Virus record (IMG/VR): IMGVR_UViG_3300044991_001466
Direction: 5' to 3' (one strand)
Length of the DNA: 64,000 bases
Source of the DNA: a virus
Lineage: Duplodnaviria; Caudoviricetes
Made by a program: the position numbers and the translations under genes. Positions 1-64,000 of this stretch are shown here, piece after piece. The notes below the pieces were generated by a model. It worked only from the letters and a program-made list of their open reading frames with translations, ran no database searches and was not told the origin of the DNA. How positions within the stretch are numbered: position 1 is the first letter of the stretch; each line of letters opens with the position of its first letter.

Positions 1-2
1 AC

Positions 3-42881: not shown

Positions 42882-42890
42882 GAATAAGAA

Positions 42891-44309: not shown

Positions 44310-44388
44310 AAAAATAAACAGAAATAATTCTACAAAAGAATAGAAAACAATAAAAATGAACTATTTATCAATTAAACAAATCAAATAG

Positions 44389-47300
44389 ATGGCACAAATT
44401 ATTAAACACAGGAGGGGTCAGTTATCCGGAATAAAAGCTTTAACCGCAAACAATGGTGAAATTATTGTTGCGTCGGGTTCAATTTCAGATTTACAAGGAC
44501 CATTTATTTTCATCGGTTCACCCGTATTACTGGATAATGGAACCGCTGGAGCCTTTAGTCCGGCCTCTAAAATATATACAGGAGCAGCTGCACCAACAAT
44601 ATTAAATGCGAGTTATGGTACTGCTTTAGATGGTACACCATTTTATGCTAGTGGTGACAAATCGTACTATATTTTAAATAATAGTGGTGCTGGTGGAAAT
44701 ACTAAATTAGATTTAACAGGTAACATTGAAGGTAACACCATTAGTGGAGTTACTATTACCACATTAACAAGTACTAAGGGTACATTCAGTAGTCAAGTAA
44801 ATGTTAGTGGGTCAATTAATGTTACAGGAAGTTTATTTATAAACGGTTCTGAATATACATCAAACTCTTCAGGTACTTCAGGTTCTTCAGGGTCTAGTGG
44901 CTCATCAGGAACTGCTGGTACATCAGGTTCTTCAGGTTCTAGTGGTTCATCAGGAACATCAGGTTCTTCAGGGTCAGACGGTTCTTCAGGAACTTCAGGT
45001 TCTAGTGGTTCAGCTGGTACTTCAGGTTCTAGTGGTTCTTCAGGAACGTCAGGTTCTAGTGGTTCTTCAGGAACTGCAGGAACATCAGGTTCTTCAGGGT
45101 CAGATGGTTCATCAGGTTCTTCAGGAACGTCAGGTTCTAGTGGTTCTTCAGGAACTGCAGGAACATCAGGTTCTTCAGGGTCAGATGGTTCATCAGGTTC
45201 ATCAGGAACAAGTGGATCATCAGGAACATCGGGTTCTAGTGGTTCTTCAGGAACGGCTGGTACTTCAGGAACATCAGGTTCTTCAGGTTCAGATGGTTCA
45301 TCAGGATCTTCAGGTTCATCAGGAACCGCTGGTACTTCAGGAACATCAGGTTCATCAGGTTCTTCAGGGTCAGATGGTTCATCAGGTTCTAGTGGTTCTG
45401 CGGGTACGTCAGGTTCATCAGGGTCATCAGGAACTTCAGGTTCATCAGGTTCATCAGGGTCAGACGGTTCTTCAGGAACATCGGGATCATCAGGTTCATC
45501 AGGAACTTCAGGTTCAAGTGGTTCATCAGGAACTTCAGGTTCATCGGGTTCTTCAGGTTCTAATGGTACAGATGGTACTTCAGGAGATAGTTTATTCGCA
45601 TTAACTGGTTCAATATGGTCTACCCAAAATCCAGTAAGAATAGTAGGAGCTTTAACCGCTTCAATGGTATCATCTTCATTCATAGGCGATGGTGCGGGTT
45701 TATATAATATTCCAGCAAGTGGTGTTACAGGTTTAGAATTAAATAAAATTGTAAACGGTGCGGTAAGTGCTTCAGTTTTATCTGACGGAACATTCAGAGT
45801 AAACGGTGATACATTTATTAATGGTACCATCACGGCAAGACAATTAAATATTGATTATGTAACTTCATCAATTTTATACACATCAGGTTCAACTAAGTTT
45901 GGTGATACATTTGATGATTTACATGAATTTACAGGAAGTGTAAACATAACAGGTTCTTTATTCTTAAATGGTGTAACAGTTGGAACGGGTAAACTAAATA
46001 CAACTGATTTTAACTCATATACATCTTCAGTAAATTCACAATTTGCAGGAACATCATCATTTGCGATTTCTTCATCATATGCTGTTTACGCGGAGAATGC
46101 AGTTATTGTTTCAGGTCAAACTAAAACATTAACAGTAACTACTCCATCAACAACATGGTCATTTACACACAATTTGGGTTATAAATTCCCAGCGATTAAT
46201 GTTTTTGATGGTAATGATAATGTAATAGTTCCTTCAGGAATTAAAGTAAAAAATAGTAATCTATTAGAGGTATATTTTAATAGTGTTGAAACGGGTACTG
46301 TAATTGCCACTATCGGTGGTAATGGTTCTTCTGGAACTTCAGGTTCAGGTGGTTCTTCTGGAACTTCAGGTTCTAGTGGTTCATCAGGAACATCAGGTTC
46401 TTCAGGGTCAGACGGTTCATCAGGAACTTCAGGTTCTAGTGGTTCTTCAGGAACTTCAGGTTCTAGCGGTTCTTCAGGAACATCAGGTTCCTCAGGTTCA
46501 TCAGGAACTTCAGGTTCTAGTGGTTCATCAGGTTCTAATGGTACAGATGGTTCTTCAGGTTCTAGTGGTTCTTCAGGAACGGCTGGTACATCAGGAACTT
46601 CAGGTTCATCAGGTTCAGATGGTACTTCAGGAACATCAGGTTCTTCAGGAACTTCAGGTTCTAGTGGTTCATCAGGAACATCAGGTTCAAGTGGTACTGC
46701 GGGTACTTCAGGTTCTTCAGGGTCAGATGGTTCTAGCGGTTCTTCAGGAACAAGTGGTTCATCAGGTTCTTCAGGAACAAGTGGTTCATCAGGTTCTTCA
46801 GGAACTTCAGGCTCAAGTGGTTCTTCAGGAACTTCAGGTTCAGATGGTACTTCAGGAACATCAGGTACTTCAGGTTCGTCAGGTTCTTCAGGAACTGCGG
46901 GAACTTCAGGTTCTAGTGGTTCATCAGGAACTGCAGGTACATCAGGTTCTTCGGGTTCAGATGGTTCTTCAGGTACTTCAGGTTCTAGTGGTTCATCAGG
47001 AACATCAGGTTCATCAGGAACAGCGGGTACTTCAGGTTCTTCAGGTTCTTCAGGAACGAGTGGTTCTTCAGGTTCTTCAGGGTCTAGCGGTTCATCAGGT
47101 TCTTCAGGAGATAGTATATTCGCTTTAACAGGTTCAGTTTGGGAGACTAATTTAAATGTTAAGTTCAACCAATCAGTAACCTCATCTATATTCACAGGTT
47201 CATTTAAAGGTGATGGTGCAGGACTTTATAACATACCAGCAAGTGGTGTTACAGGATTACAATTAGACAAAATTGCAAGTGGAGCGGTAACAGCTTCAGT

Positions 47301-47997
47301 AACAGCGGCAGGTTTACAAGTAAATGCTAACACATCTATCACAGGTTCTTTAAGTGTAAGTCAAGATGTTAGTTTCTTATCTAATTTGTTTGTATCAGGT
47401 AACCTACAAGTTTTGGGTTCATCAACAAATGTTAATATTGAATCACATACAGTTGAAATCGGTGATAATATCATCCAAGTAAACGCTTACTCACCATTTA
47501 ACAGATATGCGGGTTTATCAGCATACGATTCAGGTTCAGTAGGTGGTTCAGGTTCATTGTTATGGGATTCAACAAATGATTATTGGATACAAGTTGGTTC
47601 TAACGGACAATCAAGTAAAATGGTTGGAGTTACAGGAGGAGCATATGGTAGTGAAGCAAGTTTAACAACAAACGCAATACCAAAAGCAACTACAGGAAAC
47701 ACAATCGGTGATAGTTTGTTAACTGATAATGGTACAACATTAGCATACAACACTAACAAGTTTACCGTAGCATCTTCTGACGGAGCAACGTTAATCGCGG
47801 GTAATGTTACTGTAAGTGCAGCGGGTGGTAGTGACTCTAATAGTAAAACATCAGCAGTTACATTTAGAAACTCATCAAATGTTTTAGGTTATGTATCAAC
47901 AACAGTTGGTAGTGACGTAACGGATGGTTTCTTAGGATATAAAACATCAAATGGTGGTTTAGTATTCTCGAATGTAATTGACGGAGGAACATTCTAA
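44389..47997 (+). CDS. tail fibre protein with two very long GSS/GTS triplet tracts
   Basis: MAQIIKHRRG (Mtd_N-like start); tracts of about 240 and 265 aa; ends IDGGTF. Confidence 0.7.
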   Translation: MAQIIKHRRGQLSGIKALTANNGEIIVASGSISDLQGPFIFIGSPVLLDNGTAGAFSPASKIYTGAAAPTILNASYGTALDGTPFYASGDKSYYILNNSGAGGNTKLDLTGNIEGNTISGVTITTLTSTKGTFSSQVNVSGSINVTGSLFINGSEYTSNSSGTSGSSGSSGSSGTAGTSGSSGSSGSSGTSGSSGSDGSSGTSGSSGSAGTSGSSGSSGTSGSSGSSGTAGTSGSSGSDGSSGSSGTSGSSGSSGTAGTSGSSGSDGSSGSSGTSGSSGTSGSSGSSGTAGTSGTSGSSGSDGSSGSSGSSGTAGTSGTSGSSGSSGSDGSSGSSGSAGTSGSSGSSGTSGSSGSSGSDGSSGTSGSSGSSGTSGSSGSSGTSGSSGSSGSNGTDGTSGDSLFALTGSIWSTQNPVRIVGALTASMVSSSFIGDGAGLYNIPASGVTGLELNKIVNGAVSASVLSDGTFRVNGDTFINGTITARQLNIDYVTSSILYTSGSTKFGDTFDDLHEFTGSVNITGSLFLNGVTVGTGKLNTTDFNSYTSSVNSQFAGTSSFAISSSYAVYAENAVIVSGQTKTLTVTTPSTTWSFTHNLGYKFPAINVFDGNDNVIVPSGIKVKNSNLLEVYFNSVETGTVIATIGGNGSSGTSGSGGSSGTSGSSGSSGTSGSSGSDGSSGTSGSSGSSGTSGSSGSSGTSGSSGSSGTSGSSGSSGSNGTDGSSGSSGSSGTAGTSGTSGSSGSDGTSGTSGSSGTSGSSGSSGTSGSSGTAGTSGSSGSDGSSGSSGTSGSSGSSGTSGSSGSSGTSGSSGSSGTSGSDGTSGTSGTSGSSGSSGTAGTSGSSGSSGTAGTSGSSGSDGSSGTSGSSGSSGTSGSSGTAGTSGSSGSSGTSGSSGSSGSSGSSGSSGDSIFALTGSVWETNLNVKFNQSVTSSIFTGSFKGDGAGLYNIPASGVTGLQLDKIASGAVTASVTAAGLQVNANTSITGSLSVSQDVSFLSNLFVSGNLQVLGSSTNVNIESHTVEIGDNIIQVNAYSPFNRYAGLSAYDSGSVGGSGSLLWDSTNDYWIQVGSNGQSSKMVGVTGGAYGSEASLTTNAIPKATTGNTIGDSLLTDNGTTLAYNTNKFTVASSDGATLIAGNVTVSAAGGSDSNSKTSAVTFRNSSNVLGYVSTTVGSDVTDGFLGYKTSNGGLVFSNVIDGGTF
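45034..45195 (+). repeat. perfect 81-bp tandem duplication
   Basis: 45034-45114 is identical to 45115-45195 (27 codons). Confidence 0.85.
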
Positions 47998-48017
47998 TAG
48001 TAAGTTTAAATAAAATT

Positions 48018-48048
48018 AAAAGGAGACCCTAAAAAGTCTCCTTTTTTT
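48018..48048 (+). terminator. intrinsic terminator
   Basis: AAAAGGAGAC-N8-GTCTCCTTTT plus a T run. Confidence 0.75.
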
Positions 48049-48147
48049 ATTTATACAATACCAACTTTTGTTGTATTTATGTATAATACCTACATAGGTA
48101 ATTAACCGTGATATATATCACAAAGATTTTTAAGGAAACCCATACAT

Positions 48148-51100
48148 ATGGCACAAATAGTAAAACTACGCAGAAGTTCTGTAGCTGGCAATAAACCAGT
48201 TAATGAAACATTACAATTAGGGGAATTAGCATTAAATACAACCGACGGTAAAATTTATTTAGCCGTATCTGGTTCAGATGGTCCTACAATTGAAGAGGTA
48301 ATTACTACAAATGCATATAATACAGGTTCAGTAAATCTTAGTGGTAGTCTAAAAGTTGTCGGTACAGAATATGTAACCGGCTCAGTTATAATAACGGGTT
48401 CTTTATTCGTTAACGGAAATTCATCATTCACATCATTAGTTGTTTCAGGTTCTGACCCTGTTGGTAATGTACAAGCTTACGTTCCACCAAGTTCAGTTTA
48501 TGATCCTGCGTCATTTAACACACCTGAAAGGGTTGCTAGTGGTATTCGTTTTAATTGGAATAATGAAAACTGGACTATTGGTGCAGCAAGAGGTGCAACA
48601 ACCGATATTGATGGTTTAATTTTTAGTAGAAACGGAGTTAAAAAATACATGTTGGACGAAGATGGTAATGCATCTTTATCAGGTTCAATGTATATAAGCG
48701 GTTCATTATTTGTTAATGGTGCTGAAGTTGGAACAGGTAAATTAAACGAAACAACATTTAATTCATATACAAGTTCAAATGTTTCACAATTTGCGGGAAC
48801 ATCATCATTTGCATTAACCGCATCATATGTTGCAAATCCAACATTAGTATCAGGGTCAACAAAAAAATCAACAGTATCGGTAGGAGCAACAACATGGTCA
48901 TTCAATCACCAATTAGGTGAAAGATATCCATCAATTAATGTATTCGATTCAAATGGTTTTGTTGTTATCCCTAAAGATATTGAAACAATAGATGCAAATA
49001 ACTTAAATGTATATTTTTCATCAAATCAGACAGGTACAGTAATTGCAACAATAGGCGGAGGAGGTTCGTCAGGAACGAGTGGTAATGGTACTTCAGGAAC
49101 AAGTGGTTCATCGGGTTCTAGTGGAACAAGTGGTTCATCAGGAACTAGTGGTGTTAACGGTTCTTCAGGTACAAGTGGTGGTTCAGGTTCTTCAGGGTCT
49201 AATGGTACATCAGGTTCATCAGGAACGAGTGGTAGAGATGGTATTGGTGGTACAACACAAACATTTGCAGCATCTACAACATGGTCAGTAGCACATAATT
49301 TAGGTACTAATTTTCCGGCAGTAACTGTTTGGGACGATAATAAAAATGTGGTTATCCCAAGTCAAATAAAATCAATCGATACTAACAATATTGATGTTTA
49401 TTTTGGTAGTCCAATTTCAGGTAGTGTAAATGTAATATTTGGTGGACATGTTGTTAGTGGTGCTATTGACACATCGGCGGTTGGACACATTGTACCTTCA
49501 GTTAATAACACATATGATTTAGGTTCGGCATCAAAACAATTTAGACACTTATATTTGTCATCAGGTTCATTATATATTGACGGACAAAAAGTTTTGGGTA
49601 GTTCAAACCAAGAGTTACAAATTACAACGGATAATGGTCAATCATTAAAAATATTAGAACAAGGTACCGATACTATCACATTACAAAGTGCTGACGGAGA
49701 CATTCAATTAAAAACATCTGCGGGTGGTAATGTATTGTTAGACCCAACAACAGGATTAATTGATTTAAGAGGAACGGTTCAAATACAAGACGGTAATAAA
49801 ATTACAAGTTCAGGAGCAACTAAAGTTGTTTTTGGAAATGATATAGAAGTTACGGGTTCGATTAGAACAAGTGGTACATTAATTGTAAATGGGGTTTCAT
49901 TCTCAGCCATGACATCAGGAACTTCAGGTTCAAGTGGTGGTTCGGGTTCATCTGGTTCAGGTGGTACTTCAGGAACATCAGGTTCTAATGGGTCTAGTGG
50001 AACATCAGGTTCATCAGGAACAAGTGGTACTTCAGGAAGTAGTGGAACGTCAGGCAGTTCAGGGTCATCGGGTACAAGTGGAACCTCAGTAACTGTTTCA
50101 GGTACTAACGATGTAATTGGTAAATTCAGTTCAGGAACATTAGTTAATTCAAATATAACCGATAATGCTTCGGTAGTTAACATTAATTCAAATACAATAA
50201 TCACAGGTTCATTGACGATTACACAAAACTTAAATGTTTTAGGTTCATCATCAATAACTTATACGACAGCTTCCCAATTAAGGGTAGATGATAATGTTAT
50301 TACGGTTAATGCCTCAAGTCCAGGTGTGAGATTTGCTGGTTTATCAGTAATTGATAGTGGTTCGTCACCTACCGTTTCGGGTTCATTCTTATTTGATTCA
50401 TTAAATAATCAATTTGTTTATGTTCACACAAATCAAGGTGTGGTAACATCTTCAGTTGTTATGGTGGGTGCACAAACTTACAATAGTTTAGGAAATGAGA
50501 TTTTACCCACACAAAATAGAATATTAAAATCTTTAGGTCAGGAACATCTTGGTGATTCTAATATTTCAGATGATGGCACAACAGTTAAAATTAGTACAAA
50601 CACAGAAATAACAGGTTCGTTAAGAGTTACAAGTTTAAATATTAACGGAACATCGTACGCCGCTGCTACAAGTGGAACGTCAGGTTCTTCAGGTAGTTCA
50701 GGTACAAGTGGTTCATCAGGAACATCAGGTTCTTCAGGTTCAAATGGTTCTTCAGGAACATCAGGTAGTTCAGGTTCTAGCGGAACATCTGGCAGTTCAG
50801 GTTCATCAGGAACATCAGGTTCTAGTGGTAGTAACGGTTCATCAGGTTCTAGTGGTACAACAACAATCACAAATGCGGTAGATAATAGAGTAATGACAAG
50901 TGTCGGTGGTGTTACGTTAAATGCGGAAGCGAATTTAACATTTGACGGATCAACATTAACAGTAACAGGAGCAGTATCAACAACCGGTAACTTAACAGTA
51001 GGTGGAACATTAACAGAAAACTCATCAGTAAGATATAAGGATAACATTGAAACTTTAAAATATGGTTTAGATAATGTTCTTAAAATGAGAGGTGTTTCAT

Positions 51101-51294
51101 ACATTAAAAAAGATACAGGTGTTAAAGAGATTGGTTTAATAGCAGAAGAGTTAAATGAAATTGCACCTGAATTGGTAAATAAAAATGAAGAAGGATTACC
51201 TGATTCCGTTTCTTACGGTAGAGTAGTTTCATATTTGATTGAAGCAATAAAAGATTTAAAGAAAGAAATTGAAGAACTTAAATCAAATAAATAA
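48148..51294 (+). CDS. tail fibre with Mtd_N N-terminus and C-terminal peptidase S74 intramolecular chaperone
   Basis: N-terminus MAQIVKLRRS...LQLGELALNTTDGKIY; C-terminus SSVRYKDNI...IGLIAEEL...PELV...VSY...LIEAIKDL..EIEELK. Confidence 0.8.
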   Translation: MAQIVKLRRSSVAGNKPVNETLQLGELALNTTDGKIYLAVSGSDGPTIEEVITTNAYNTGSVNLSGSLKVVGTEYVTGSVIITGSLFVNGNSSFTSLVVSGSDPVGNVQAYVPPSSVYDPASFNTPERVASGIRFNWNNENWTIGAARGATTDIDGLIFSRNGVKKYMLDEDGNASLSGSMYISGSLFVNGAEVGTGKLNETTFNSYTSSNVSQFAGTSSFALTASYVANPTLVSGSTKKSTVSVGATTWSFNHQLGERYPSINVFDSNGFVVIPKDIETIDANNLNVYFSSNQTGTVIATIGGGGSSGTSGNGTSGTSGSSGSSGTSGSSGTSGVNGSSGTSGGSGSSGSNGTSGSSGTSGRDGIGGTTQTFAASTTWSVAHNLGTNFPAVTVWDDNKNVVIPSQIKSIDTNNIDVYFGSPISGSVNVIFGGHVVSGAIDTSAVGHIVPSVNNTYDLGSASKQFRHLYLSSGSLYIDGQKVLGSSNQELQITTDNGQSLKILEQGTDTITLQSADGDIQLKTSAGGNVLLDPTTGLIDLRGTVQIQDGNKITSSGATKVVFGNDIEVTGSIRTSGTLIVNGVSFSAMTSGTSGSSGGSGSSGSGGTSGTSGSNGSSGTSGSSGTSGTSGSSGTSGSSGSSGTSGTSVTVSGTNDVIGKFSSGTLVNSNITDNASVVNINSNTIITGSLTITQNLNVLGSSSITYTTASQLRVDDNVITVNASSPGVRFAGLSVIDSGSSPTVSGSFLFDSLNNQFVYVHTNQGVVTSSVVMVGAQTYNSLGNEILPTQNRILKSLGQEHLGDSNISDDGTTVKISTNTEITGSLRVTSLNINGTSYAAATSGTSGSSGSSGTSGSSGTSGSSGSNGSSGTSGSSGSSGTSGSSGSSGTSGSSGSNGSSGSSGTTTITNAVDNRVMTSVGGVTLNAEANLTFDGSTLTVTGAVSTTGNLTVGGTLTENSSVRYKDNIETLKYGLDNVLKMRGVSYIKKDTGVKEIGLIAEELNEIAPELVNKNEEGLPDSVSYGRVVSYLIEAIKDLKKEIEELKSNK

Positions 51295-53814: not shown

Positions 53815-53819
53815 ATGTA

Positions 53820-54527
53820 ATGGCAAGTTTAAAAAATTTAACAATTAACGACACTGGATTTATTGGATTACCAACAGGTAGTACAGCTGAAAGACCATCT
53901 CCATCTAATGGATATTTAAGATATAATACTACATTAGGTAGACCCGAAGTTTATATTAGTAGTTGGTTAAACCCATACGCCAGAACGGAAGGTTATTTAC
54001 ATTATTACGAAGGTAGAGATGCAAATTTATATACTGCAAATTGGAATAATAGCACAACGTATTCAATGTTAAATTTTGGTGGATTAGGTCATATTACGGC
54101 ACATGGTTGGACAACTGGTCCTGCAACATATACATTAACATTAGGTTCAATTCCAATACACACACAAGTTCGTTATTTAGTATTTTGGCATTTAGTAGAT
54201 TCGTTGGATACTGAAACAAGTAATTTGTACTTAATGAACTCAGCCGGAACTGAAACTGAATTTCTAAGATTTACAAAGATATATAACGCGGTACCAACCA
54301 CATCGGTTTTACAATCGGGAGCAACAGCAACGTGGAGTGGTGCTAAATCGTACACATATAGACCTTGGGCAAGTGGAGCATATGGAAACGATGGTTACTA
54401 TTTATTTGATAGTGGATATTATGACCACACATCCACATCATTTACTGCAAGACACGTATGTGGTGCAGACCAAGCACAAGCGGATGAAGCGATGTATCTT
54501 TCACACGTTCAATTATGGATTAAATAA
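53820..54527 (+). CDS. fibre-tip protein sharing the LP.G.T..RP N-terminal module
   Basis: N-terminus paralogous to 52951 and 54534; C-terminal domain unrecognised. Confidence 0.6.
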   Translation: MASLKNLTINDTGFIGLPTGSTAERPSPSNGYLRYNTTLGRPEVYISSWLNPYARTEGYLHYYEGRDANLYTANWNNSTTYSMLNFGGLGHITAHGWTTGPATYTLTLGSIPIHTQVRYLVFWHLVDSLDTETSNLYLMNSAGTETEFLRFTKIYNAVPTTSVLQSGATATWSGAKSYTYRPWASGAYGNDGYYLFDSGYYDHTSTSFTARHVCGADQAQADEAMYLSHVQLWIK

Positions 54528-54533
54528 TAAATT

Positions 54534-56236: not shown

Positions 56237-56923
56237 ATGAATAATATCGGTATAGGTATAATGTGTTTCGGTGATGTTTCCTATTTTAACAGTACAAAAG
56301 AAAAAGTTACCAATTTAAAAGATATTGGAATTGATTGTTATATCTTAACCGATGAACCAGAACAATTTACAACTAAAACCATACACTACGGTAGACACCT
56401 CAAGTCATATCATGATAAGATAATATTAGTTAAAGAAATATTAAAAAATCACAATATCTGTATTCTAATAGATGCCGACACTTTTATCTCCGACTATTCA
56501 TTTATCGAACAGTTAGTTAACTATCCATACCAAAATGGAATTACATATGTTGAAACTCTATTAAGTCATAAGATAAAAAAAGAATTCATAAGAGATATTC
56601 AAATGAATATTGGAGATATTGATTGGTTAAATTATAAAACATATCTCCAAAAAATATATCCACAATATGGTGATTTAGAGACCATTTACGAGTACTTCTT
56701 GGTTTTCAATAAAGAAGGATTAAAAGATAATTTCTTTCTCTTATATGAGAAGTTACAATCAATTAAAGAGGCGTGTGATGTGATGAGTGGAAAGAAAATT
56801 GTGGTAGGGTCAGCTGAAGGTGTATCAATACAAGTTGCCGCAAAAATTACGGATACCCAAATACAAAAAGATGTGGTATTATTTGAATTAATTAAAGATA
56901 AAATTAAAAATGATTCAAGATAA
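56237..56923 (+). CDS. putative GT-A fold glycosyltransferase
   Basis: YILTDEP, SYHDK and LIDADT (DxD). The ATG at 56237 is preferred. Confidence 0.5.
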   Translation: MNNIGIGIMCFGDVSYFNSTKEKVTNLKDIGIDCYILTDEPEQFTTKTIHYGRHLKSYHDKIILVKEILKNHNICILIDADTFISDYSFIEQLVNYPYQNGITYVETLLSHKIKKEFIRDIQMNIGDIDWLNYKTYLQKIYPQYGDLETIYEYFLVFNKEGLKDNFFLLYEKLQSIKEACDVMSGKKIVVGSAEGVSIQVAAKITDTQIQKDVVLFELIKDKIKNDSR

Positions 56924-57665
56924 CAATTATATAAAAAAATACATCACCAACAATCAAGAATTTGATGAAATGGGTGATGAAATATTAAAAAGTGTACCGT
57001 TTCGTTGGAGCCATGGTGCAACAGATTTACATATGGGTGATGGTATCATTGTGTATGCGTTGATACAACATATGAGAGCAAAGACTTGCGTTTGTTTAGG
57101 TAGCGGTGGTGGTTTTATTCCACGTATCATGACACAAGCAAGAATTGATTTACACAAACAAGAAATATTTGAAGGTAACGGTAGTCATAATTGGGGAGAC
57201 ATAGGTGAGACCTATATTGTTGACGCAATGAACGGAGTTGGTGGACAAGTTAATTGGTTTGATGAAGATAGTTTTCTTAGAAAATGGTTTCAACCAAGAA
57301 TAATTAATACCACAACCGAAGATGCCTTTCATAACTACTTCGTTTTAAACGATATAAAGATTGATTATTTACATATTGATGCCGGACATAGTTATGAAAA
57401 TGTTAAAGAAGACTTTGAACTTTATACACAGATATTATCAACGAATGCAATCGTATCTATACACGATACCGACCCAAATTATGCCGACAAATACATTGTA
57501 ACCAACGAGGTTAAAGATAGGGGTGATTTTGATGATTGGACAGGACCAATTAAGTTTAACCAAGAAATCGATGAGACAAAATGGGAAAAAATTAATCTAT
57601 TTAATTTTGGTATAGTTAAAAACAAACCATCATCCACAGGAATTACAATTTTACGTAAAAAATAG
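56910..57665 (+). CDS. class I SAM-dependent methyltransferase (Methyltransf_24-like)
   Basis: VCLGSGGG, IDYLHIDAGHSYE.V..D and IHDT. Confidence 0.75.
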   Translation: MIQDNNYIKKYITNNQEFDEMGDEILKSVPFRWSHGATDLHMGDGIIVYALIQHMRAKTCVCLGSGGGFIPRIMTQARIDLHKQEIFEGNGSHNWGDIGETYIVDAMNGVGGQVNWFDEDSFLRKWFQPRIINTTTEDAFHNYFVLNDIKIDYLHIDAGHSYENVKEDFELYTQILSTNAIVSIHDTDPNYADKYIVTNEVKDRGDFDDWTGPIKFNQEIDETKWEKINLFNFGIVKNKPSSTGITILRKK

Positions 57666-57674
57666 CCTTAGACA

Positions 57675-57706
57675 TTTGATTTATACGTAAAAATTTCTTA
57701 TATTTT
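57675..57706 (+). promoter_or_regulatory. Bacteroidota-type promoter (TTTG-N20-TAnnTTTT)
   Basis: TTTG at 57675-57678, a 20-nt spacer, and TATATTTT at 57699-57706 just before the ATG at 57713. Confidence 0.45.
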
Positions 57707-57712
57707 ATACTA

Positions 57713-58564
57713 ATGGTAAGATTAGTTACAGTTATAGGTCACGGAGTTAAATTACTACCTCATTTCATTAAACATTATTCAAGATATGTTGATGAAATTA
57801 ATATAGTTGTTTACCAATCAGACTTACATCCAGATTTACATGATGAAGTGTCACAATACATTGAAAATCAAAACAATGTAAAAATTGTACATACATTAAC
57901 GGAAAGAATATTTGATTGGGAAAAGGTAACTAGTTTATATAATTTCATAAAATCAAAACACAAAAATGATTGGTGGGTAGTCGCCGACATTGATGAGTTT
58001 CATTTATACCCTGATGATGATTTACCAAAAGTAATTCAAACATGTGAAGAGTATGGTTTTGAAATGGTTAGAGGTGGGTTTATTGATAGAATAGGTAGAG
58101 GTGGAGAGTTTGCAGAATTGGTTGACGATGTATCTATATGGGACCAATTTCCGAACGCAGGATTTTTTAGATATCCAATGAGTAGTGCAAACCCTAATAA
58201 AATATGTCTAATGAAAGGTTTTGTTGAAATAACATCAGGACAACATTATGCTAAAATAGATGGTCAAACAACTTGGAAATGGCAAGGATGGAATCATCCA
58301 CAAATAAACCCAATCGATTTCGTTCAAGTACATCATTTCAAGTGGGATAGAACATCAATCGAAAGAATAAAAACCGTTGCTGAATTAAACGAAGATTATG
58401 CATATTCAAATGAGTATTTCACAATGTTTAAAGAATTAATAAAAACTAAATTTAGAATAAATCTAATGGAAAAAGATTTCATGTTTGAATTGGGTTTGAT
58501 ATACCCCAAATATGAATTATATAAAAATTGGAATAAATTAATAAACAAAATAATATCAATATGA
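57713..58564 (+). CDS. glycosyltransferase family 2/92-like
   Basis: LLPHFIKHYS..VDEI, WWVVADIDEFH and GG(F)IDR. Confidence 0.7.
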   Translation: MVRLVTVIGHGVKLLPHFIKHYSRYVDEINIVVYQSDLHPDLHDEVSQYIENQNNVKIVHTLTERIFDWEKVTSLYNFIKSKHKNDWWVVADIDEFHLYPDDDLPKVIQTCEEYGFEMVRGGFIDRIGRGGEFAELVDDVSIWDQFPNAGFFRYPMSSANPNKICLMKGFVEITSGQHYAKIDGQTTWKWQGWNHPQINPIDFVQVHHFKWDRTSIERIKTVAELNEDYAYSNEYFTMFKELIKTKFRINLMEKDFMFELGLIYPKYELYKNWNKLINKIISI

Positions 58565-58586
58565 CACATATAAATATTGGATTAGA

Positions 58587-59993
58587 ATGAGATTAGCGAT
58601 AATAGTACCATATAGAGACAGAAGAGACGATTTAGATGTGTTTATACCACACATGGAAAAATTTTTAGCTAATAAACAAATAGATTATAAAATTTTTGTT
58701 GCTGAACAATCTGACGATAGGGCTTTCAATTACGGTAAAATATGTAATGCAGTTTTTAATGAAATAAAAGATGATTACGATTATTTTTGTTTTCATGACG
58801 TAGATTTATTACCATTAAATGACGATGCTGATTATTCTTATAAAGACATCCCAACACATTTGGTTTTTGAGAATAAAAATAAAGAAAAGATATTACCATA
58901 CAGCCAATATTTCGGTGGTGTGGTAATTTTTAGTAAAAACGATTTTATAAAGATAAACGGATTTGGGAATGACTATTGGGGTAAAGGATATGTTGATTTA
59001 GATTTATTATATCGATGTTTAAAAAGTAAAATTACCTTAACTAAAAATTACGATTATAATCTTAAAGAAATACTCAAATCTGATTTAAAATATAGAAACA
59101 TTACCAAAAAGGTTTCTAAAATTGTTTTACCTGAAAATTCAATTATAGTTAATAGAAAATCTGACGTCATTGCCACCAATTTTACGTTAAGTTTTCATTA
59201 TAAAGAAGTGAGACAAAATAGGAAAAAAATAGTAATTTTTAGGACACTTGATTTTGGAGATTTCCAAATATTCACCATAAATGGACAAATGATTTTACAA
59301 TTTTTTGATAAGGGTAAACTATTCCAAATCGACATTAACAACGAAGTCGATATAACTCAGTTTAATCATTTTACATTTACTCACGATTACAATAAAAAAG
59401 AATTTATTATCTATATAAATGGTGTTGAAAAATTTAATATTAATTATACCATAAATTATAATTTTACCAAAAAAAATGTTATATTAGGTGATATAGACAA
59501 TAGCGTAAAAATTGAATTAATTGATTTTAAATTGTTTACAAAAAAACTAACAAAAAATGAAGTTAATAGAAATTTTTACTATGGGGTAAAATCAAATTGT
59601 TTTGAATTTAATAAGATTACGTTTTACGATAATGTAACAAAATTTATTGATGAGCATTTTAACATTTGGGAAATTATGGGTAAAACAACATCCGATAAAG
59701 AAAACTTAATAATTGGTGAAATGTTAATGGTAGATGTGGTTAATAAACAATTAAATAAAGTAAAATATACACCAAATAAAATAAAAGGAAGATATGAAAT
59801 TAGAGGTAATAAATTTGATAACATTGAAACAACGTATCATCCCGATATATTAGAAAATAAAAACACTTACTATAATGATTTGTTGACTAATAAGATTAAT
59901 ACAAGTAAGTTTGGACTAAAAAGTGTTAAGTACACTTTATTGAATAAAATAGAATATAATAATAACACAGAATGGTTAAAAATATCTCTTTAA
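58587..59993 (+). CDS. GT7 galactosyltransferase-like protein with LamG insertion (atypical catalytic motif)
   Basis: IIVPYRDR, FNYGK, FHDVD and YFGGV; WGKGYVDLD in place of WGWGGEDDD. Confidence 0.75.
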   Translation: MRLAIIVPYRDRRDDLDVFIPHMEKFLANKQIDYKIFVAEQSDDRAFNYGKICNAVFNEIKDDYDYFCFHDVDLLPLNDDADYSYKDIPTHLVFENKNKEKILPYSQYFGGVVIFSKNDFIKINGFGNDYWGKGYVDLDLLYRCLKSKITLTKNYDYNLKEILKSDLKYRNITKKVSKIVLPENSIIVNRKSDVIATNFTLSFHYKEVRQNRKKIVIFRTLDFGDFQIFTINGQMILQFFDKGKLFQIDINNEVDITQFNHFTFTHDYNKKEFIIYINGVEKFNINYTINYNFTKKNVILGDIDNSVKIELIDFKLFTKKLTKNEVNRNFYYGVKSNCFEFNKITFYDNVTKFIDEHFNIWEIMGKTTSDKENLIIGEMLMVDVVNKQLNKVKYTPNKIKGRYEIRGNKFDNIETTYHPDILENKNTYYNDLLTNKINTSKFGLKSVKYTLLNKIEYNNNTEWLKISL

Positions 59994-60550
59994 CAAAGTA
60001 TCAAGTTGAAAATCTTGAAAATATCGCAGATTTATTAGAAAGTATTGATTATTCTAAAGAAGATGCTGAAATTAAATTTTTAACTCTTATTGTGAATATT
60101 GAAAGCCTTTTACCAAAATCAAATATTTTTGATTACGTGTTTAAGACGGATATCACGAAAGATAAGAAATTAGAATTACAGGAAAATAAAAAACAAAAAT
60201 TTGTGGTAATAAATGACAATGTGGAGTTGTTAAAATCATTACCAAATGATATTGAATTTAAGTGGAGCCAAGTAAATAATAAATACGATATCATAAATAA
60301 CACATACGATGAAATAAAAAGTATCGAATCAAACATCCAAGATATTCACACACAAATGAGTGAAATAGCTTCTGAAAACGATGTGTTATATGGTGAGATA
60401 GAAAATATTGACTTTGAAATATCACAAATTGATAACTACATTGAGGAGTCCGAATGGAAAGTAGACTTGGATAGTCACGAAGAAATAACATTTAATAAAA
60501 TAAAAGAAAAATTAATAATCGAAAAAAAGTTTAATTATGGAAATATCTAA
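59972..60550 (+). CDS. acidic coiled-coil hypothetical protein
   Basis: 192 aa with a heptad-like C-terminal half. Confidence 0.5.
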   Translation: MVKNISLTKYQVENLENIADLLESIDYSKEDAEIKFLTLIVNIESLLPKSNIFDYVFKTDITKDKKLELQENKKQKFVVINDNVELLKSLPNDIEFKWSQVNNKYDIINNTYDEIKSIESNIQDIHTQMSEIASENDVLYGEIENIDFEISQIDNYIEESEWKVDLDSHEEITFNKIKEKLIIEKKFNYGNI

Positions 60551-60782
60551 AGAAGAACAACACGAATTAAATAAAAAGGGTGTTGAAGCTATGACAAGAA
60601 TTGCAACCTCATTGGAGGGTATAAACGATTGGGTTTATACATTAAATACCGCAGCATGGTCAGAGAGACTAGAGTGGTATTTAAACGAATTTTATCAATT
60701 AGCTAAAGCAAAAACTATCGGTTCATCCGATAGACCAACAAAAGAATATGAAGAAGAAACTGGCGATAATAGTCCCTTATAG
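60537..60782 (+). CDS. hypothetical protein
   Basis: 81-aa ORF overlapping both neighbours. Confidence 0.45.
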   Translation: MEISKEEQHELNKKGVEAMTRIATSLEGINDWVYTLNTAAWSERLEWYLNEFYQLAKAKTIGSSDRPTKEYEEETGDNSPL

Positions 60783-61995
60783 GGATAGAAGTACTCATTT
60801 AAATACGTTTATTTCATACATGGAATCTTATTTAAAAGATTACACATATGAAATCATTGTTATTAATCAAGCGGATAACCAACCATTTAATAGAGGTAAA
60901 TTATTAAACATCGGCGCAAAATATGCCATAGACAATGGTTTTGATTATTTGTGTTTTCACGATGTAGATATGTTACCAATTAATGCAGATTACTCATATC
61001 CTAAAGAACCAACAAGTCTAATATCTGAATTGGAAAATAAAGAAGGTAATATATTTTTTACTTACTTTGGAGGTATCACTTTATTTAATATTCAAGATTT
61101 TATAACGGTGAATGGATATTCTAATAACTATTGGGGGTGGGGATATGAAGATACTGATTTATTTTATAGAGTTACACATAGCGGATTATTTTTTGATTCT
61201 GAAATGATTGGTGAGAATGACTATTCTTTATTTTCTGTTGAATTAAAAGAAGAGGATTATATAAAAATACCAATAGACTCTAAATTCATTGATGGCGATT
61301 TTAATATTAAATTAACCACAAAAGTTGAATCTAAGTATTTCGATGAGAATAAAAATTATGATGAATATCCAATATTATCCATACCGGGATATAACATTGG
61401 TATTTTTTATAATTCATTTAATAGATTTTTTATACAGGTTTATGATACTAATAAAAAACCATATTCAATTACAACGGACATTTTAGATGACGTAACATCA
61501 AGTTTTACATTTTCTAAGGTTAGGAATACAATTTCATTCTCAATGAATAACAAATTAATTGGTGAAGTTGTTATGGATAGTCCAATACTTAATTTAGACA
61601 ATGAATTTATGTATATAGGAACGTTCTCTGAAAAAGAAAAAATCGAATTTGATTTAACAATAATTGACATTGAAATTGACGACTATCATTTAGGTACAAA
61701 TGATTATGAATTAATAGGTGGCGTTATTAATTCTGATAAAATGATATCACATAGAACTTCAATACCAAAACCAATTAGAAGAGAAGGGTTATATCGTGAA
61801 TTATATCACGACAGTAACTCATCAATTAACAAATCTTGGGTACATAAAGAAACTAGAAATAATCAAATATTTTTTAATAATTTTGTTAAGCAAAATTTAA
61901 TTGATTTCACTAAAGAAGGATTAAACACACTTCAATATGAATTAATTTCGGAAAAAGATAATAATAACCATAAAATTTTGTCCGTATCATTATGA
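60748..61995 (+). CDS. GT7 galactosyltransferase-like protein with LamG-like insertion
   Basis: IIVPYRDR, FNRGKLLNIG, FHDVD and YWGWGYEDTD. Confidence 0.8.
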   Translation: MKKKLAIIVPYRDRSTHLNTFISYMESYLKDYTYEIIVINQADNQPFNRGKLLNIGAKYAIDNGFDYLCFHDVDMLPINADYSYPKEPTSLISELENKEGNIFFTYFGGITLFNIQDFITVNGYSNNYWGWGYEDTDLFYRVTHSGLFFDSEMIGENDYSLFSVELKEEDYIKIPIDSKFIDGDFNIKLTTKVESKYFDENKNYDEYPILSIPGYNIGIFYNSFNRFFIQVYDTNKKPYSITTDILDDVTSSFTFSKVRNTISFSMNNKLIGEVVMDSPILNLDNEFMYIGTFSEKEKIEFDLTIIDIEIDDYHLGTNDYELIGGVINSDKMISHRTSIPKPIRREGLYRELYHDSNSSINKSWVHKETRNNQIFFNNFVKQNLIDFTKEGLNTLQYELISEKDNNNHKILSVSL

Positions 61996-63404
61996 GTCAT
62001 AAATTAGGGATTTGTATACCATATAGAAATAGAAAAGAACATTTAGATAAATTAGTTCCACATCTTTCTGAACATTTAACAAAACAAGGAATAGAACATA
62101 CTTTTTATGTTGGACATCAACTAGACGATAAATTATTTAACAGAGGGGCGATGAAAAACATTGCAGCTAAATATGCGTTTGAAGATGGGTGCGACTATAT
62201 TGCATGGCACGATGTGGATATGTTACCACAAGAAAATGCGGACTATTCGTACCCATCGGAAACCCCTGTACATATCGCAACTAAATTGTCAAAGTATAAT
62301 TATGGTTTAGGTTATGATCAATACTTTGGTGGCGTTGTATTATTCACAAAAGAACAAGTTGAAAAAACTAACGGATACTCAAATGATTATTGGGATTGGG
62401 GAATGGAAGATGATGATTTATTTTGGAGATCATATTTTGAAGGTATGACAACTGGTGATATCTTTAAAGAATATAAAAGTAAAAAAATAGGTATTTTCAA
62501 TGGAATAAATTCACATGTTGAAATACCTGCTAATAGAAAATTAGTAGAATGTTTAAATAAAAACCATACAATATCTTTTTTAGTTTGTGCAGAACAACAA
62601 CCAGAGAAAGTACCAATTTGGTTAATTGGTGACAAAGAAAAGAAATTTATCGAATATCCAATCTTTGTAAAAACGGGCGGTTACAATTATATGTTATCTT
62701 TTAATAACTCAAGAGCCTTCACGATGAAAGTATTTGACGAAAGAAGAAACCCAATTTATAATTGGATTAAAAGATTTGAATCTCTTTGGACTTGGGTTAC
62801 GTTATCAATAGACACAGAAAATAATCAAATGTATTTTTATCTAAATAACGAACTGACAAGAAATCAATTCGGTACCAAAGAAAATTTACCAATTTCTTAT
62901 GAAGGTAAACTAATGAGATATGATTTAAGAAATCCATTTATGATTGGATTTGATAATTTTACTAACACAAGATTTAAAGGTAAAATTGCAAGAATAAAAC
63001 TATATAATAAATTTTTTAATAGTGAAGAAATAAATAACATAATTGATGATAAATTAGATACTCCACTATTAAATTTTGATTTTGATAATTTAACGCAAGA
63101 GTATCAATTAAACAACATTGATTTAATAGATGAACAAATTCAAGTTATTGAAAATATTATACCATTTAGAAGAGAGGGGGTTTTTGATTGTCTATCACAT
63201 ATAGATGAGGGTTATGTAGGGGGTACGTGGAAAAAAGGTGAAACTACAGCTAAAAATGAAAAAAGGTTTGTTTCTGAAATGCAACAAGGATTGATTAATT
63301 ACAAAGAAGATGGTTTAAATAATATATTGAATGTAATGGATATTGATAATGTAGATGTATCTTTATATCCAAACACTAAATTTATAAATGTAAAAATGAA
63401 ATGA
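61992..63404 (+). CDS. GT7 galactosyltransferase-like protein with LamG insertion
   Basis: CIPYRNR, FNRGAMKN, WHDVD and YWDWGMEDDD; the insert has FNG.NS.VEIP...W.WVTL...YLN...FKGKIARIKLYN. Confidence 0.8.
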   Translation: MSHKLGICIPYRNRKEHLDKLVPHLSEHLTKQGIEHTFYVGHQLDDKLFNRGAMKNIAAKYAFEDGCDYIAWHDVDMLPQENADYSYPSETPVHIATKLSKYNYGLGYDQYFGGVVLFTKEQVEKTNGYSNDYWDWGMEDDDLFWRSYFEGMTTGDIFKEYKSKKIGIFNGINSHVEIPANRKLVECLNKNHTISFLVCAEQQPEKVPIWLIGDKEKKFIEYPIFVKTGGYNYMLSFNNSRAFTMKVFDERRNPIYNWIKRFESLWTWVTLSIDTENNQMYFYLNNELTRNQFGTKENLPISYEGKLMRYDLRNPFMIGFDNFTNTRFKGKIARIKLYNKFFNSEEINNIIDDKLDTPLLNFDFDNLTQEYQLNNIDLIDEQIQVIENIIPFRREGVFDCLSHIDEGYVGGTWKKGETTAKNEKRFVSEMQQGLINYKEDGLNNILNVMDIDNVDVSLYPNTKFINVKMK

Positions 63405-64000
63405 GCGACTTTGACGTAACCAAAAGTGAATTAGATAAGGTAGGTTGTGGTATGTGTTTAGCAAAATGGACACAAGTTACTATGCATTTACACAATGGAA
63501 TGACACACTCATGTCATCACCCTGTACCACATAAAATACCATTAAGTGAAATAAAAGAAAATCCAACAGCATTACACAATACCAAATATAAGAAATTGGC
63601 TCGTAAAGAAATGTTGGAAAATAAAAGACCTGGTGAATGTGACTATTGTTGGAATGTTGAAGATAATTCTAATTCATTTTCAGATAGAGTATTTAAATCA
63701 AATGAATCTTGGTCATTACCACATTTAGAAGAAATTAAAGGATTAAATTGGAAAGCAAATTATAACCCAAAATATGTTGAGGTAAGTTTTTCAAATACAT
63801 GTAATTTTAAATGTGCATATTGTAGTCCAATGGCATCTTCAAAGTGGGTTGAAGAAATTGAAAAATTTGGTGGGTACCCGTTGTCATATAATTTTAACAA
63901 TTTAGAGTGGTTAAAAGAAACTGGTCAGTTACCATATAAACAAACAGAATACAATCCGTATGTGGAATCTTTTTGGAATTGGTGGCCTGAATTGTATAGA
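63401..64000 (+). CDS. 3'-truncated radical SAM enzyme with N-terminal SPASM/twitch-like Cys cluster
   Basis: Not in the ORF track. MSDFDVTK...CLAKW...SCHH...CDYCW, then the CNFKCAYC (CX3CX2C) motif; the frame is open to the window end. Confidence 0.85.
   Translation, partial: MSDFDVTKSELDKVGCGMCLAKWTQVTMHLHNGMTHSCHHPVPHKIPLSEIKENPTALHNTKYKKLARKEMLENKRPGECDYCWNVEDNSNSFSDRVFKSNESWSLPHLEEIKGLNWKANYNPKYVEVSFSNTCNFKCAYCSPMASSKWVEEIEKFGGYPLSYNFNNLEWLKETGQLPYKQTEYNPYVESFWNWWPELYR

What the first reader, a model, noticed from the sequence alone, without database searches (positions are those of the whole stretch)
58587..63404. Three tandem GT7 paralogs, each with a LamG lectin-like domain inserted inside the catalytic domain
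Seen: in all three, the GT7 core (PYR, FN.G, HDVD, GG, W.WG.EDDD-like) breaks just after the R...G segment. About 200-260 aa of LamG-like sequence follows (FT.S...H.T.T.D....+Y+NG...+G...I.D++++.K.L...E+). The GT7 tail then resumes (P....G.Y/F...H...N...GL..+.Y). The insertion point is equivalent in all three, implying insertion before triplication. Known: eukaryotic GT27 ppGalNAc-transferases use an appended lectin domain to glycosylate mucins densely. Inference: this may be a convergent lectin-assisted GT architecture, with the diverged inserts giving different acceptor specificity. I do not know it as a described family.
Basis: partly seen in the sequence, partly recalled or inferred. Interest (0 to 1): 0.72.

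Follow-up and report, generated by a model that had tools for sequence, protein, structure and literature searches.

The report
Phage galactosyltransferase-like enzymes split by LamG
A large uncultured lake phage encodes three sugar-adding enzymes of the animal beta-1,4-galactosyltransferase type, each with a lectin-like LamG domain spliced into the middle of its catalytic fold; the design is real, common in uncultured phages and unstudied, and probably helps build a glycan on the phage's Ser/Thr-rich fibres.

Summary
Three paralogs (58587-59993, 60748-61995, 61992-63404) have a GT7 core that stops after the WGxGxEDDD helix. A beta-sandwich of about 194-262 aa follows, then a tail of about 75 aa. 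Two AlphaFold models (pLDDT 93-94, pTM 0.88) superpose core plus tail on bovine B4GalT1 178-399 (212-215 residues, rmsd 1.9-2.2 A, Z 27-28). Their inserts match LamG and pentraxin domains (Z 16-22). All three tails align to the C-terminus of insert-free phage GT7s (hhalign E 5e-6 to 2e-9).

Corrections:
- The genes are not strictly tandem. Two conserved small ORFs separate copies 1 and 2.
- Copy 1 has WGKGYVDLD, lacks the post-insert His, and may be altered or inactive.

The three copies fall in three separate starred clades. One ancient insertion is not rejected.

The design occurs in thousands of metagenomic proteins on T4-like phage contigs. It is nearly absent from cellular genomes. I found no paper describing it.

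Function is inferred only. The enzymes are cytoplasmic and have a late-promoter motif. The conserved cassette lies downstream of Ser/Thr/Gly-rich fibre genes. Lectin activity is untested.

This scan has already reported the same design on several other phage genomes.

The parts
58569..58576 (+). T4-type late-promoter-like TATAAATA, 10 nt before the start codon of copy 1
   Evidence: The motif is not enriched overall (14 found, 16 expected). However, all five plus-strand copies in the window lie 17-54 nt upstream of a start codon.
58587..59993 (+). GT7-LamG paralog 1 (468 aa, P0151). Core is about residues 1-148 (58587-59030), insert about 149-395 (59031-59771), tail about 396-468 (59772-59990). 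Its active-site motifs are divergent.
   Evidence: Pfam 7N 79 bits, 7C 53 bits, Laminin_G_3 33.5 bits. The tail aligns to insert-free GT7 positions 150-223 (hhalign 85.7%, E 5e-6). WGKGY[VI]DLD, FNYG and the missing His are conserved in 22 orthologs.
59972..60550 (+). Small ORF (192 aa, coiled-coil-like) between copies 1 and 2. No family assigned.
   Evidence: An ORF of 137-232 aa sits at the same place in L072, L073 and L074.
60537..60782 (+). Small ORF (81 aa) that overlaps the start of copy 2. No family assigned.
   Evidence: An ORF of 79-81 aa sits at the same place in L072, L073 and L074.
60748..61995 (+). GT7-LamG paralog 2 (415 aa, P0166). Core is about residues 1-150 (60748-61197), insert about 151-340 (61198-61767), tail about 341-415 (61768-61992).
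   Evidence: phmmer: residues 4-149 match B4GalT1 66-217 of 287, E 1e-30. AF2 pLDDT 92.9, pTM 0.88. VIA-align Z 26.8 to B4GalT1 across 1..415; insert Z 16-17 to laminin LG, agrin and PAPP-A. Tail against P0422 149-209: BLASTP E 4e-6; hhalign E 2e-9.
61992..63404 (+). GT7-LamG paralog 3 (470 aa, P0121). Core is about residues 1-154 (61992-62453), insert about 155-390 (62454-63161), tail about 391-470 (63162-63401).
   Evidence: AF2 pLDDT 94.3, pTM 0.88. VIA-align Z 28, 215 residues aligned to B4GalT1 178..399; insert Z 22 to PAPP-A LamG. The A3 profile hits B4GalT1 twice, colinearly: 3-154 and 422-469. Tail hhalign E 3e-7.
56910..58564 (+). Upstream members of the conserved cassette: a Methyltransf_24 protein (56910-57665) and a 283-aa Glyco_tranf_2_4-like protein (57713-58564).
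   Evidence: Pfam. The same order is seen in L001, L072 and L074.
63401..64000 (+). Downstream twitch-type radical SAM gene, cut by the end of the window.
   Evidence: NCBIfam N_Twi_rSAM E 4e-45. Radical SAM genes follow the GT7 genes in L001, L072 and L074.
39009..51294 (+). Four fibre genes with long (Gly-Ser/Thr-Ser/Thr)n collagen-like runs. These are the candidate acceptors (inference).
   Evidence: PHROG tail-fibre and collagen-like families. Composition is S 18-29%, G 11-21%, T 11-15%, with many GXY runs.

Best explanation
These are three soluble, cytoplasmic, late-expressed phage glycosyltransferases of the inverting GT-A family GT7 (the beta-1,4-galactosyltransferase type).

Shown: a LamG/pentraxin-type beta-sandwich is nested in each catalytic fold. 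It sits between the helix that follows WGxGxEDDD and the strand that carries the conserved His and leads into the C-terminal segment. In B4GalT1 that point lies just before the metal-binding strand and the long flexible loop.

Inferred:
- The three enzymes work together with the upstream GT2-like protein and methyltransferase, and with the two small conserved proteins, to build a defined O-glycan stepwise on the phage's Ser/Thr/Gly-rich fibre proteins before assembly.
- The donor is a UDP-hexose. A Tyr is kept at the B4GalT1 Tyr289 position, which I recall as the Gal-versus-GalNAc determinant.
- The nested LamG domain is held rigidly against the catalytic domain. It acts as a built-in acceptor-recognition module that binds either the fibre or the growing glycan, so each paralog has its own step.
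- Copy 1 has lost the Trp, Glu and His of the active site in a conserved way. It is either re-specialised or a non-catalytic partner.
For: Architecture:
- Pfam hits.
- Core matches to B4GalT1 and B4GalT7 at E 1e-30 to 1e-55.
- AF2 pLDDT 93-94 and pTM 0.88 for two-domain proteins.
- VIA-align Z 27-28 across the insert, and Z 16-22 for the insert itself.
- Tail homology to insert-free phage GT7s.
- 356 of 531 collected relatives are split at the same HMM position of about 150, with a median gap of 227 aa.

Catalytic competence: copies 2 and 3 have the HDVD, FNRG, YFGG and W(G/D)WGxED(D/T)D motifs and the His after the insert.

Cytoplasmic location: each protein starts directly at the first strand of the fold, with no leader or membrane segment.

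Late expression: TATAAATA lies 10 nt before copy 1.

Context:
- The cassette methyltransferase, GT2-like protein, GT7, small ORF, small ORF, GT7, GT7, radical SAM is conserved in phage contigs of 32-334 kb. A two-copy form sits in the same synteny on a 636-kb contig.
- It lies a few kb downstream of very Ser/Thr/Gly-rich fibre genes in the window, in L001 and L074 and in a 248-kb T4-like contig.

Inserts evolve faster than cores.
Against: - No acceptor, donor or activity is shown.
- No conserved sugar- or Ca-binding residue was found in the insert.
- I could not read model coordinates, so the position of the LamG face relative to the acceptor pocket is unknown.
- A contig with three copies (G003:C13) has no Ser/Thr/Gly-rich gene within 20 kb.
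- Collagen-like runs are absent near the relatives examined.
- The neighbouring radical SAM/SPASM-type genes would also fit peptide or small-molecule chemistry.
Confidence: 0.45

Rival explanations
1. The enzymes act on host envelope glycan precursors (undecaprenyl-linked O-antigen, capsule or S-layer glycans) at the cytoplasmic face. This would remodel the infected cell surface, for example to block superinfection. The LamG domain would recognise the lipid-linked glycan.
For: - GT-A enzymes next to a GT2-like protein and a methyltransferase resemble polysaccharide loci.
- Cellular bacteria carry insert-free GT7-like genes (65 loci).
- Another part of this genome was read as an envelope-remodelling module (an unchecked note).
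Against: - There is no flippase, polymerase or initiating phosphoglycosyl transferase in the cassette.
- There is no membrane anchor.
- The late-promoter motif and the constant position after the fibre genes point elsewhere.
- The design is essentially confined to phage contigs.
Confidence: 0.17
2. The enzymes glycosylate ribosomal peptides or other small products made by the neighbouring radical SAM/SPASM-type enzymes. The LamG domain would act as the peptide-recognition element.
For: - A run of radical SAM/SPASM genes directly follows the GT7 genes here and in relatives.
- Stand-alone LamG ORFs alternate with those radical SAM genes (lead).
- Other parts of the genome were read as peptide-modifying (unchecked).
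Against: - No precursor-peptide gene was identified in the cassette.
- GT7 is not a family I know to glycosylate such peptides (from memory).
- The fibre genes are the constant upstream neighbours.
- The inserts are not detectably closer to the stand-alone LamG ORFs than to other LamG domains (best BLASTP E 0.002).
Confidence: 0.13
3. The LamG insert has no role in substrate choice. It is a structural, oligomerisation or virion-docking module, and the glycosyltransferase works as an ordinary GT7. Alternatively, the proteins are virion components rather than enzymes.
For: - LamG/ConA-like domains are common in the structural proteins of this phage and many others.
- No ligand-binding residues are conserved in the insert.
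- Copy 1 has a degraded active site yet is conserved.
Against: - The insert is kept at one exact site next to the metal-binding segment in hundreds of divergent sequences.
- Insert-free relatives exist, so the fold does not need it.
- Copies 2 and 3 keep all catalytic motifs.
Confidence: 0.15
4. The enzymes glycosylate modified bases of the phage DNA, as T4-type phages do with hydroxymethylcytosine.
For: The phage is T4-like (Gp23 in a related contig; notes). Phage DNA glycosylation is widespread, as cited in PMC12619734.
Against: - DNA-modifying enzymes are expected early, not behind a late-promoter motif.
- The genes sit among fibre and protein-modifying genes.
- From memory, the known T4 DNA glucosyltransferases are a different fold.
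- No hydroxymethylase was seen in this window.
Confidence: 0.05

Closest known systems
Animal beta-1,4-galactosyltransferases 1 and 7 (CAZy GT7; PDB 1TVY, 1NF5, 2AE7, 3LW6, 4IRQ)
   Same: - The same GT-A fold, including the C-terminal segment. Z is 26-28 with 203-216 aligned residues and 31-34% identity over the aligned residues. Foldseek alone gives 38-42% identity over the first ~152-157 core residues.
- The DVD, FNR, YFGG and WGWGxEDDD motifs are shared.
- A His lies in the strand that carries the metal ligands.
- B4GalT7 acts on Xyl-O-Ser at Ser-Gly sites of proteoglycans (from memory), which resembles the fibre repeats.
   Different: - There is no membrane anchor or stem, and the first ~48 residues of the animal catalytic domain are missing (the alignment starts at bovine residue 178).
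- A LamG domain of 194-262 aa is nested at about bovine residues 330-335.
- The host is a phage, not the Golgi.
- Copy 1 lacks the Trp, Glu and His.
- No activity is known.
Insert-free phage and bacterial GT7-like proteins of about 210-235 aa (for example P0422, next to a phage ribosomal protein S21 gene)
   Same: Core and tail are homologous to the window's proteins. They align contiguously to B4GalT1 (E 2e-60).
   Different: There is no LamG domain. They form one group in the tree (SH-aLRT 93). Some occur as tandem two- or three-domain fusions.
GT27 polypeptide GalNAc-transferases with a ricin-type lectin domain (PMC4432651)
   Same: A GT-A catalytic domain is joined in one chain to a carbohydrate-binding-type domain. 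Multiple paralogs act on Ser/Thr-rich repeats.
   Different: In GT27 the lectin is a C-terminal beta-trefoil on a flexible linker, not a nested LamG sandwich. GT27 is a retaining enzyme and is not homologous beyond the GT-A fold. Lectin activity here is unproven.
Lactose synthase (B4GalT1 with alpha-lactalbumin; PDB 1NF5, 4L41) and the MGAT4A C-terminal lectin domain (PMC9296478)
   Same: An accessory protein or domain beside the acceptor site re-tunes the acceptor choice or activity of a GT-A enzyme. In B4GalT1 the specifier binds only after the long loop closes (from memory). That loop starts just after the point where the phage insert sits.
   Different: Alpha-lactalbumin is a separate, unrelated protein. 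The MGAT4A lectin is appended, not nested. No such regulation is shown here.

Membership tests
CAZy GT7 / Pfam Glyco_transf_7N + 7C | Significant match to both Pfam halves | tested here: met
   All three score 65-80 bits on 7N (cut-off 27) and 53-69 bits on 7C (cut-off 23).
CAZy GT7 / Pfam Glyco_transf_7N + 7C | B4GalT-type GT-A fold including the C-terminal segment after the acceptor helix | tested here: met
   Copies 2 and 3: Z 26.8 and 28, with 212-215 residues aligned across the insert. Copy 1 was not modelled; its tail rests on hhalign alone (85.7%, E 5e-6).
CAZy GT7 / Pfam Glyco_transf_7N + 7C | DxD (DVD) metal/donor motif | tested here: met
   HDVD is invariant in all three copies and across A3, A4 and A5.
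CAZy GT7 / Pfam Glyco_transf_7N + 7C | WGWGxEDDD acceptor and catalytic-base motif, plus the His in the following metal-binding strand | tested here: inconclusive
   Met in copy 2 (WGWGYEDTD, His) and copy 3 (WDWGMEDDD, His). Not met in copy 1 (WGKGYVDLD, Asn in place of His). That state is conserved in its 22 orthologs.
CAZy GT7 / Pfam Glyco_transf_7N + 7C | Inverting transfer of Gal or GalNAc from a UDP-sugar in beta-1,4 linkage | not testable with these tools
   This needs an enzyme assay.
LamG / ConA-like lectin-glucanase superfamily (Pfam Laminin_G_3) | Profile match above the Pfam cut-off | tested here: inconclusive
   Copy 1 scores 33.5 bits (passes 27.6), copy 3 scores 27.1 (just under) and copy 2 has no hit. 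The family profile A3 hits sialidase lectin domains, pentraxins and 4DQA at E 1e-8 to 1e-3.
LamG / ConA-like lectin-glucanase superfamily (Pfam Laminin_G_3) | Two-sheet jelly-roll beta-sandwich | tested here: met
   Copy 3 insert: PAPP-A LamG Z 22, pentraxins Z 18-19. Copy 2 insert: laminin LG4-5, agrin, neurexin and perlecan LG Z 16. Copy 1 was not modelled.
LamG / ConA-like lectin-glucanase superfamily (Pfam Laminin_G_3) | Carbohydrate or Ca-dependent ligand binding | not testable with these tools
   No conserved acidic or amide site was seen in the insert. Binding needs a glycan array or similar.
Lectin-assisted GT27 ppGalNAc-transferases | C-terminal ricin-type (beta-trefoil) lectin appended to a GT27 catalytic domain | tested here: not met
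   The catalytic domain is GT7 and the extra domain is a nested LamG sandwich. The resemblance is functional at most.

The most novel reading that the evidence does not exclude
A phage-specific class of GT7 enzymes in which a LamG domain, nested at the hinge of the catalytic flexible loop, serves as a built-in acceptor specifier. Two or three such paralogs, together with two small partner proteins, would form an assembly line that coats Ser/Thr-rich virion fibres with a defined, proteoglycan-like glycan. One paralog would be a conserved non-catalytic or re-specialised partner.
Probability: 0.25. Interest if true: 0.75.

Novelty: new variant of a known kind. Interest (0 to 1): 0.58.

Why it matters
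GT7 is known almost entirely from animal Golgi enzymes, and its accessory specifier (alpha-lactalbumin) is a separate protein. Here thousands of phage proteins carry a recognition-type domain nested in the same fold. It sits right next to the segment that closes over the substrates.

If the domain steers acceptor choice, this is a compact natural design for programmable glycosylation. It would also point to widespread glycan coats on the fibres of large aquatic phages. Such coats would bear on host recognition, particle stability and grazing or immune evasion.

The family is large, soluble and models with high confidence, so it is easy to test.

Tried and rejected
- tblastn of copy 3 against 50,697 cultured-phage records found nothing.
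- PHROGs and NCBIfam give no family for the three proteins.
- phmmer of a single tail against the PDB gave only noise. BLASTP of the copy 1 and copy 3 tails against one insert-free protein was not significant. Profile methods were needed.
- hmmalign could not carry the alignment across the insert, so I spliced core and tail locally for the tree.
- I considered a duplicated 'proximal tail' in the copy 1 clade, because HMMER extended the core hit. I rejected it: hhalign probability is under 1%.
- I looked for collagen-like GXY runs near the relatives' cassettes and found none within the flanks. Ser/Thr/Gly-rich giant genes are present, though.
- I tested whether the inserts were recently shared with the neighbouring stand-alone LamG genes. 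BLASTP E is 0.002 at best, so this is unresolved.
- Sigma-70 and terminator scans are at chance level.
- Five further literature searches found no description of the design. A sixth led to one jumbo-phage paper, PMC12619734, which lists four glycosyltransferase groups without architecture. I did not test whether this phage belongs to that lineage.
- Contigs of 150-235 nt from four lake-water RNA libraries match parts of copies 1 and 2, the small ORF, the GT2-like gene and the radical SAM gene at 95-100%. Without a silent-stretch control this does not show transcription.
- No whole genome is held for the window.
- Model coordinates are not readable, so inter-domain geometry was not measured.

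Full report
**What is there.** The region holds five co-oriented ORFs:
- copy 1: 58587-59993, 468 aa (P0151)
- a 192-aa ORF: 59972-60550
- an 81-aa ORF: 60537-60782
- copy 2: 60748-61995, 415 aa (P0166)
- copy 3: 61992-63404, 470 aa (P0121)

So the three GT7 genes are neighbours but not strictly tandem. The DNA is AT-rich, 26-29% G+C here. No whole genome is held for the window.

The source appears to be a large T4-like freshwater phage:
- The exact proteins occur on contigs of up to 267 kb.
- The DNA is held by lake-water metagenomes.
- A related 248-kb contig carrying two such genes also encodes a T4-type Gp23 capsid protein.
- Earlier notes of this scan call the genome a huge T4-like freshwater phage of Bacteroidota (unchecked).

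**The GT7 core.** Pfam finds Glyco_transf_7N and 7C in all three, well above cut-off, but the 7C match ends at profile position 60-63 of 78. Copy 2 residues 4-149 align to B4GalT1 66-217 of a 287-residue chain at E 1e-30. A 55-sequence family profile reaches E 1e-55. Copies 2 and 3 share the PYR.R, FNRG, HDVD, YFGG and W(G/D)WGxED(D/T)D motifs.

**The catalytic domain is discontinuous.** Four independent lines support this.
1. The family profile hits B4GalT1 a second time, weakly but colinearly. Profile positions 422-469 match chain 222-267, including the DGLNSLTY motif.
2. Insert-free phage GT7 proteins of about 223 aa exist. As a profile they align contiguously to B4GalT1 65-275 (E 2e-60). 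The C-terminal ~75 residues of each window paralog align to their positions ~145-223:
   - copy 2: hhalign 96%, E 2e-9 (BLASTP E 4e-6)
   - copy 3: hhalign 93%, E 3e-7
   - copy 1: hhalign 86%, E 5e-6
3. AlphaFold2 models of copy 3 (pLDDT 94.3, pTM 0.88) and copy 2 (92.9, 0.88) superpose on bovine B4GalT1 178-399. That covers 215 and 212 residues at rmsd 1.9 and 2.2 A, with Z 28 and 26.8, spanning model residues 1 to the end. Foldseek's local alignment covers only the first ~152 residues.
4. I ran an HMM of the insert-free family over 531 collected relatives. It gives 356 split hits that break at HMM position ~150, with a median gap of 227 aa.

The break falls after the helix that follows the EDDD motif and before the P.RR.G.F..L.H strand. 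Using the alignment and the residue numbers implied by the Met344His and Cys342Thr entries, I place it at about bovine B4GalT1 residues 330-335. That is just upstream of the metal-binding strand and the long flexible loop. The exact residue equivalence is my inference.

**The insert.** It is 262, 194 and 237 aa in copies 1, 2 and 3.
- Pfam Laminin_G_3 passes in copy 1, is borderline in copy 3 and is missed in copy 2.
- Both modelled inserts are LamG/pentraxin-type sandwiches. Copy 3 matches PAPP-A LamG at Z 22, pentraxins at Z 18-19 and a Bacteroides putative carbohydrate-binding protein at Z 19. Copy 2 matches laminin LG, agrin, neurexin, perlecan and PAPP-A at Z 16-17.
- A pTM of 0.88 for a two-domain chain suggests a fixed mutual orientation. 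I could not read coordinates to see which face meets the active site.
- The inserts evolve faster than the cores: 41-55% against 69-76% identity among orthologs, and 23% against 46% among the three paralogs.
- No acidic or amide site is conserved across the family in the insert.

Lectin activity is therefore a hypothesis, not a finding.

**Copy 1 is different.** Its whole ortholog group (22 sequences, down to 45% identity) has these conserved changes:
- WGKGY[VI]DLD in place of WGWGxEDDD
- FNYG in place of FNRG
- no His in the strand after the insert

It keeps HDVD and the Asp that aligns with the catalytic base. It is under constraint. It is either re-specialised or not a normal enzyme.

**History.** I built a tree of 136 spliced core-plus-tail sequences.
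- The three window paralogs fall in three separate starred clades, each with orthologs from other phage contigs.
- The 57 rows without an insert form one group (SH-aLRT 93). That group includes tandem multi-GT7 fusions.
- Three insert-free rows sit weakly among the insert-bearing ones: one is itself a tandem two-GT7 fusion, two have N-terminal extensions.
- An AU test does not reject all insert-free rows as one clade (p 0.20).

This fits one old insertion that predates the paralogs. It does not prove it, because the root is unknown.

**Distribution and novelty.**
- Word-index searches return 1,656, 2,154 and 171 clusters at 90% identity for copies 3, 2 and 1. Nearly all are 'hypothetical protein'.
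- The exhaustive search gives 4,885 representatives at E 0.001. These mix insert-bearing and insert-free forms.
- ESM Atlas clusters with GT7 plus Laminin_G_3 are 100% viral.
- Among 185,579 species genomes, 68 loci matched. Only three match at full length: one on the T4-like 248-kb contig and two on short MAG contigs. The other 65 are core-only.
- AFDB's 2.3 million clusters contain one full-length match. BFVD contains none, only insert-free giant-virus GT7s.
- Cultured phages have no match.
- I found no paper describing the design. The known lectin-bearing glycosyltransferases that turned up (GT27, MGAT4A) have appended domains, not nested ones.

The scan itself has already reported this design on several other phage genomes, with the same verdict.

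**Context and likely role (inferred).**
- The proteins have no leader or membrane segment, so they act in the infected cytoplasm.
- TATAAATA lies 10 nt before copy 1. All five plus-strand copies of this motif in the window sit 17-54 nt before a start codon. That fits T4-type late transcription.
- The cassette methyltransferase, GT2_4-like protein, GT7, small ORF, small ORF, GT7, GT7, radical SAM is conserved in related contigs. A two-copy form occupies the same synteny on a 636-kb contig.
- Upstream lie LamG-bearing structural proteins and four fibre genes with hundreds of (Gly-Ser/Thr-Ser/Thr) triplets. Ser/Thr/Gly-rich giant genes also flank the cassette in three other phage contigs, but not in one three-copy contig.

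The best reading is stepwise O-glycosylation of fibre proteins, with the nested LamG as an acceptor-recognition module. Rival readings are:
- host envelope precursors as acceptors
- peptides made by the radical SAM genes as acceptors
- a purely structural insert
- DNA glycosylation

Short RNA-library contigs match parts of the genes, but without a control this does not show transcription.

**Verdict.** This is a new, unstudied variant of a known enzyme family.

Noticed in passing
window 59972-60782: Two small ORFs (192 aa coiled-coil-like, and 81 aa overlapping the start of copy 2) sit between GT7 copies 1 and 2. ORFs of 137-232 aa and 79-81 aa occupy the same place in related phage contigs (L072, L073, L074), so they look like real cassette members. 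They have no family.
   Followed up: partly
window 8176, 13003, 35463, 56156, 58569 (plus strand): All five plus-strand TATAAATA motifs lie 17-54 nt upstream of a start codon, although the motif is not enriched overall. This looks like T4-type late promoters.
   Followed up: partly
window 39009-51294: There are four fibre genes with very long (Gly-Ser/Thr-Ser/Thr)n collagen-like runs (S 18-29%, G 11-21%). The last one ends in a segment that looks like the C-terminal intramolecular-chaperone type of tail-fibre end (by eye, not tested).
   Followed up: partly
P0296 (450 aa), P0307, P0314, P0356 (metagenomic relatives): Some insert-free GT7 relatives are tandem fusions of two or three complete GT7 domains in one polypeptide. 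This is another way the family multiplies.
   Followed up: no
window 63401-64000 and relatives L001, L072, L074: A run of twitch/SPASM-type radical SAM genes with an N-terminal SCHHP motif follows the GT7 genes. In relatives they alternate with ~200-aa ORFs and stand-alone LamG ORFs.
   Followed up: no
window 52951-56195: The structural-looking proteins just upstream carry Laminin_G_3 domains. One (54534-56195) also has a fibrinogen-like GGGWT domain (NCBIfam). LamG is a recurrent module in this part of the genome.
   Followed up: partly
ESM Atlas hit, rank 29: A bacterial (Bacillota) cluster combines Glycos_transf_2 with Laminin_G_3 in 605-aa proteins. I did not examine whether the LamG there is nested or appended.
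   Followed up: no
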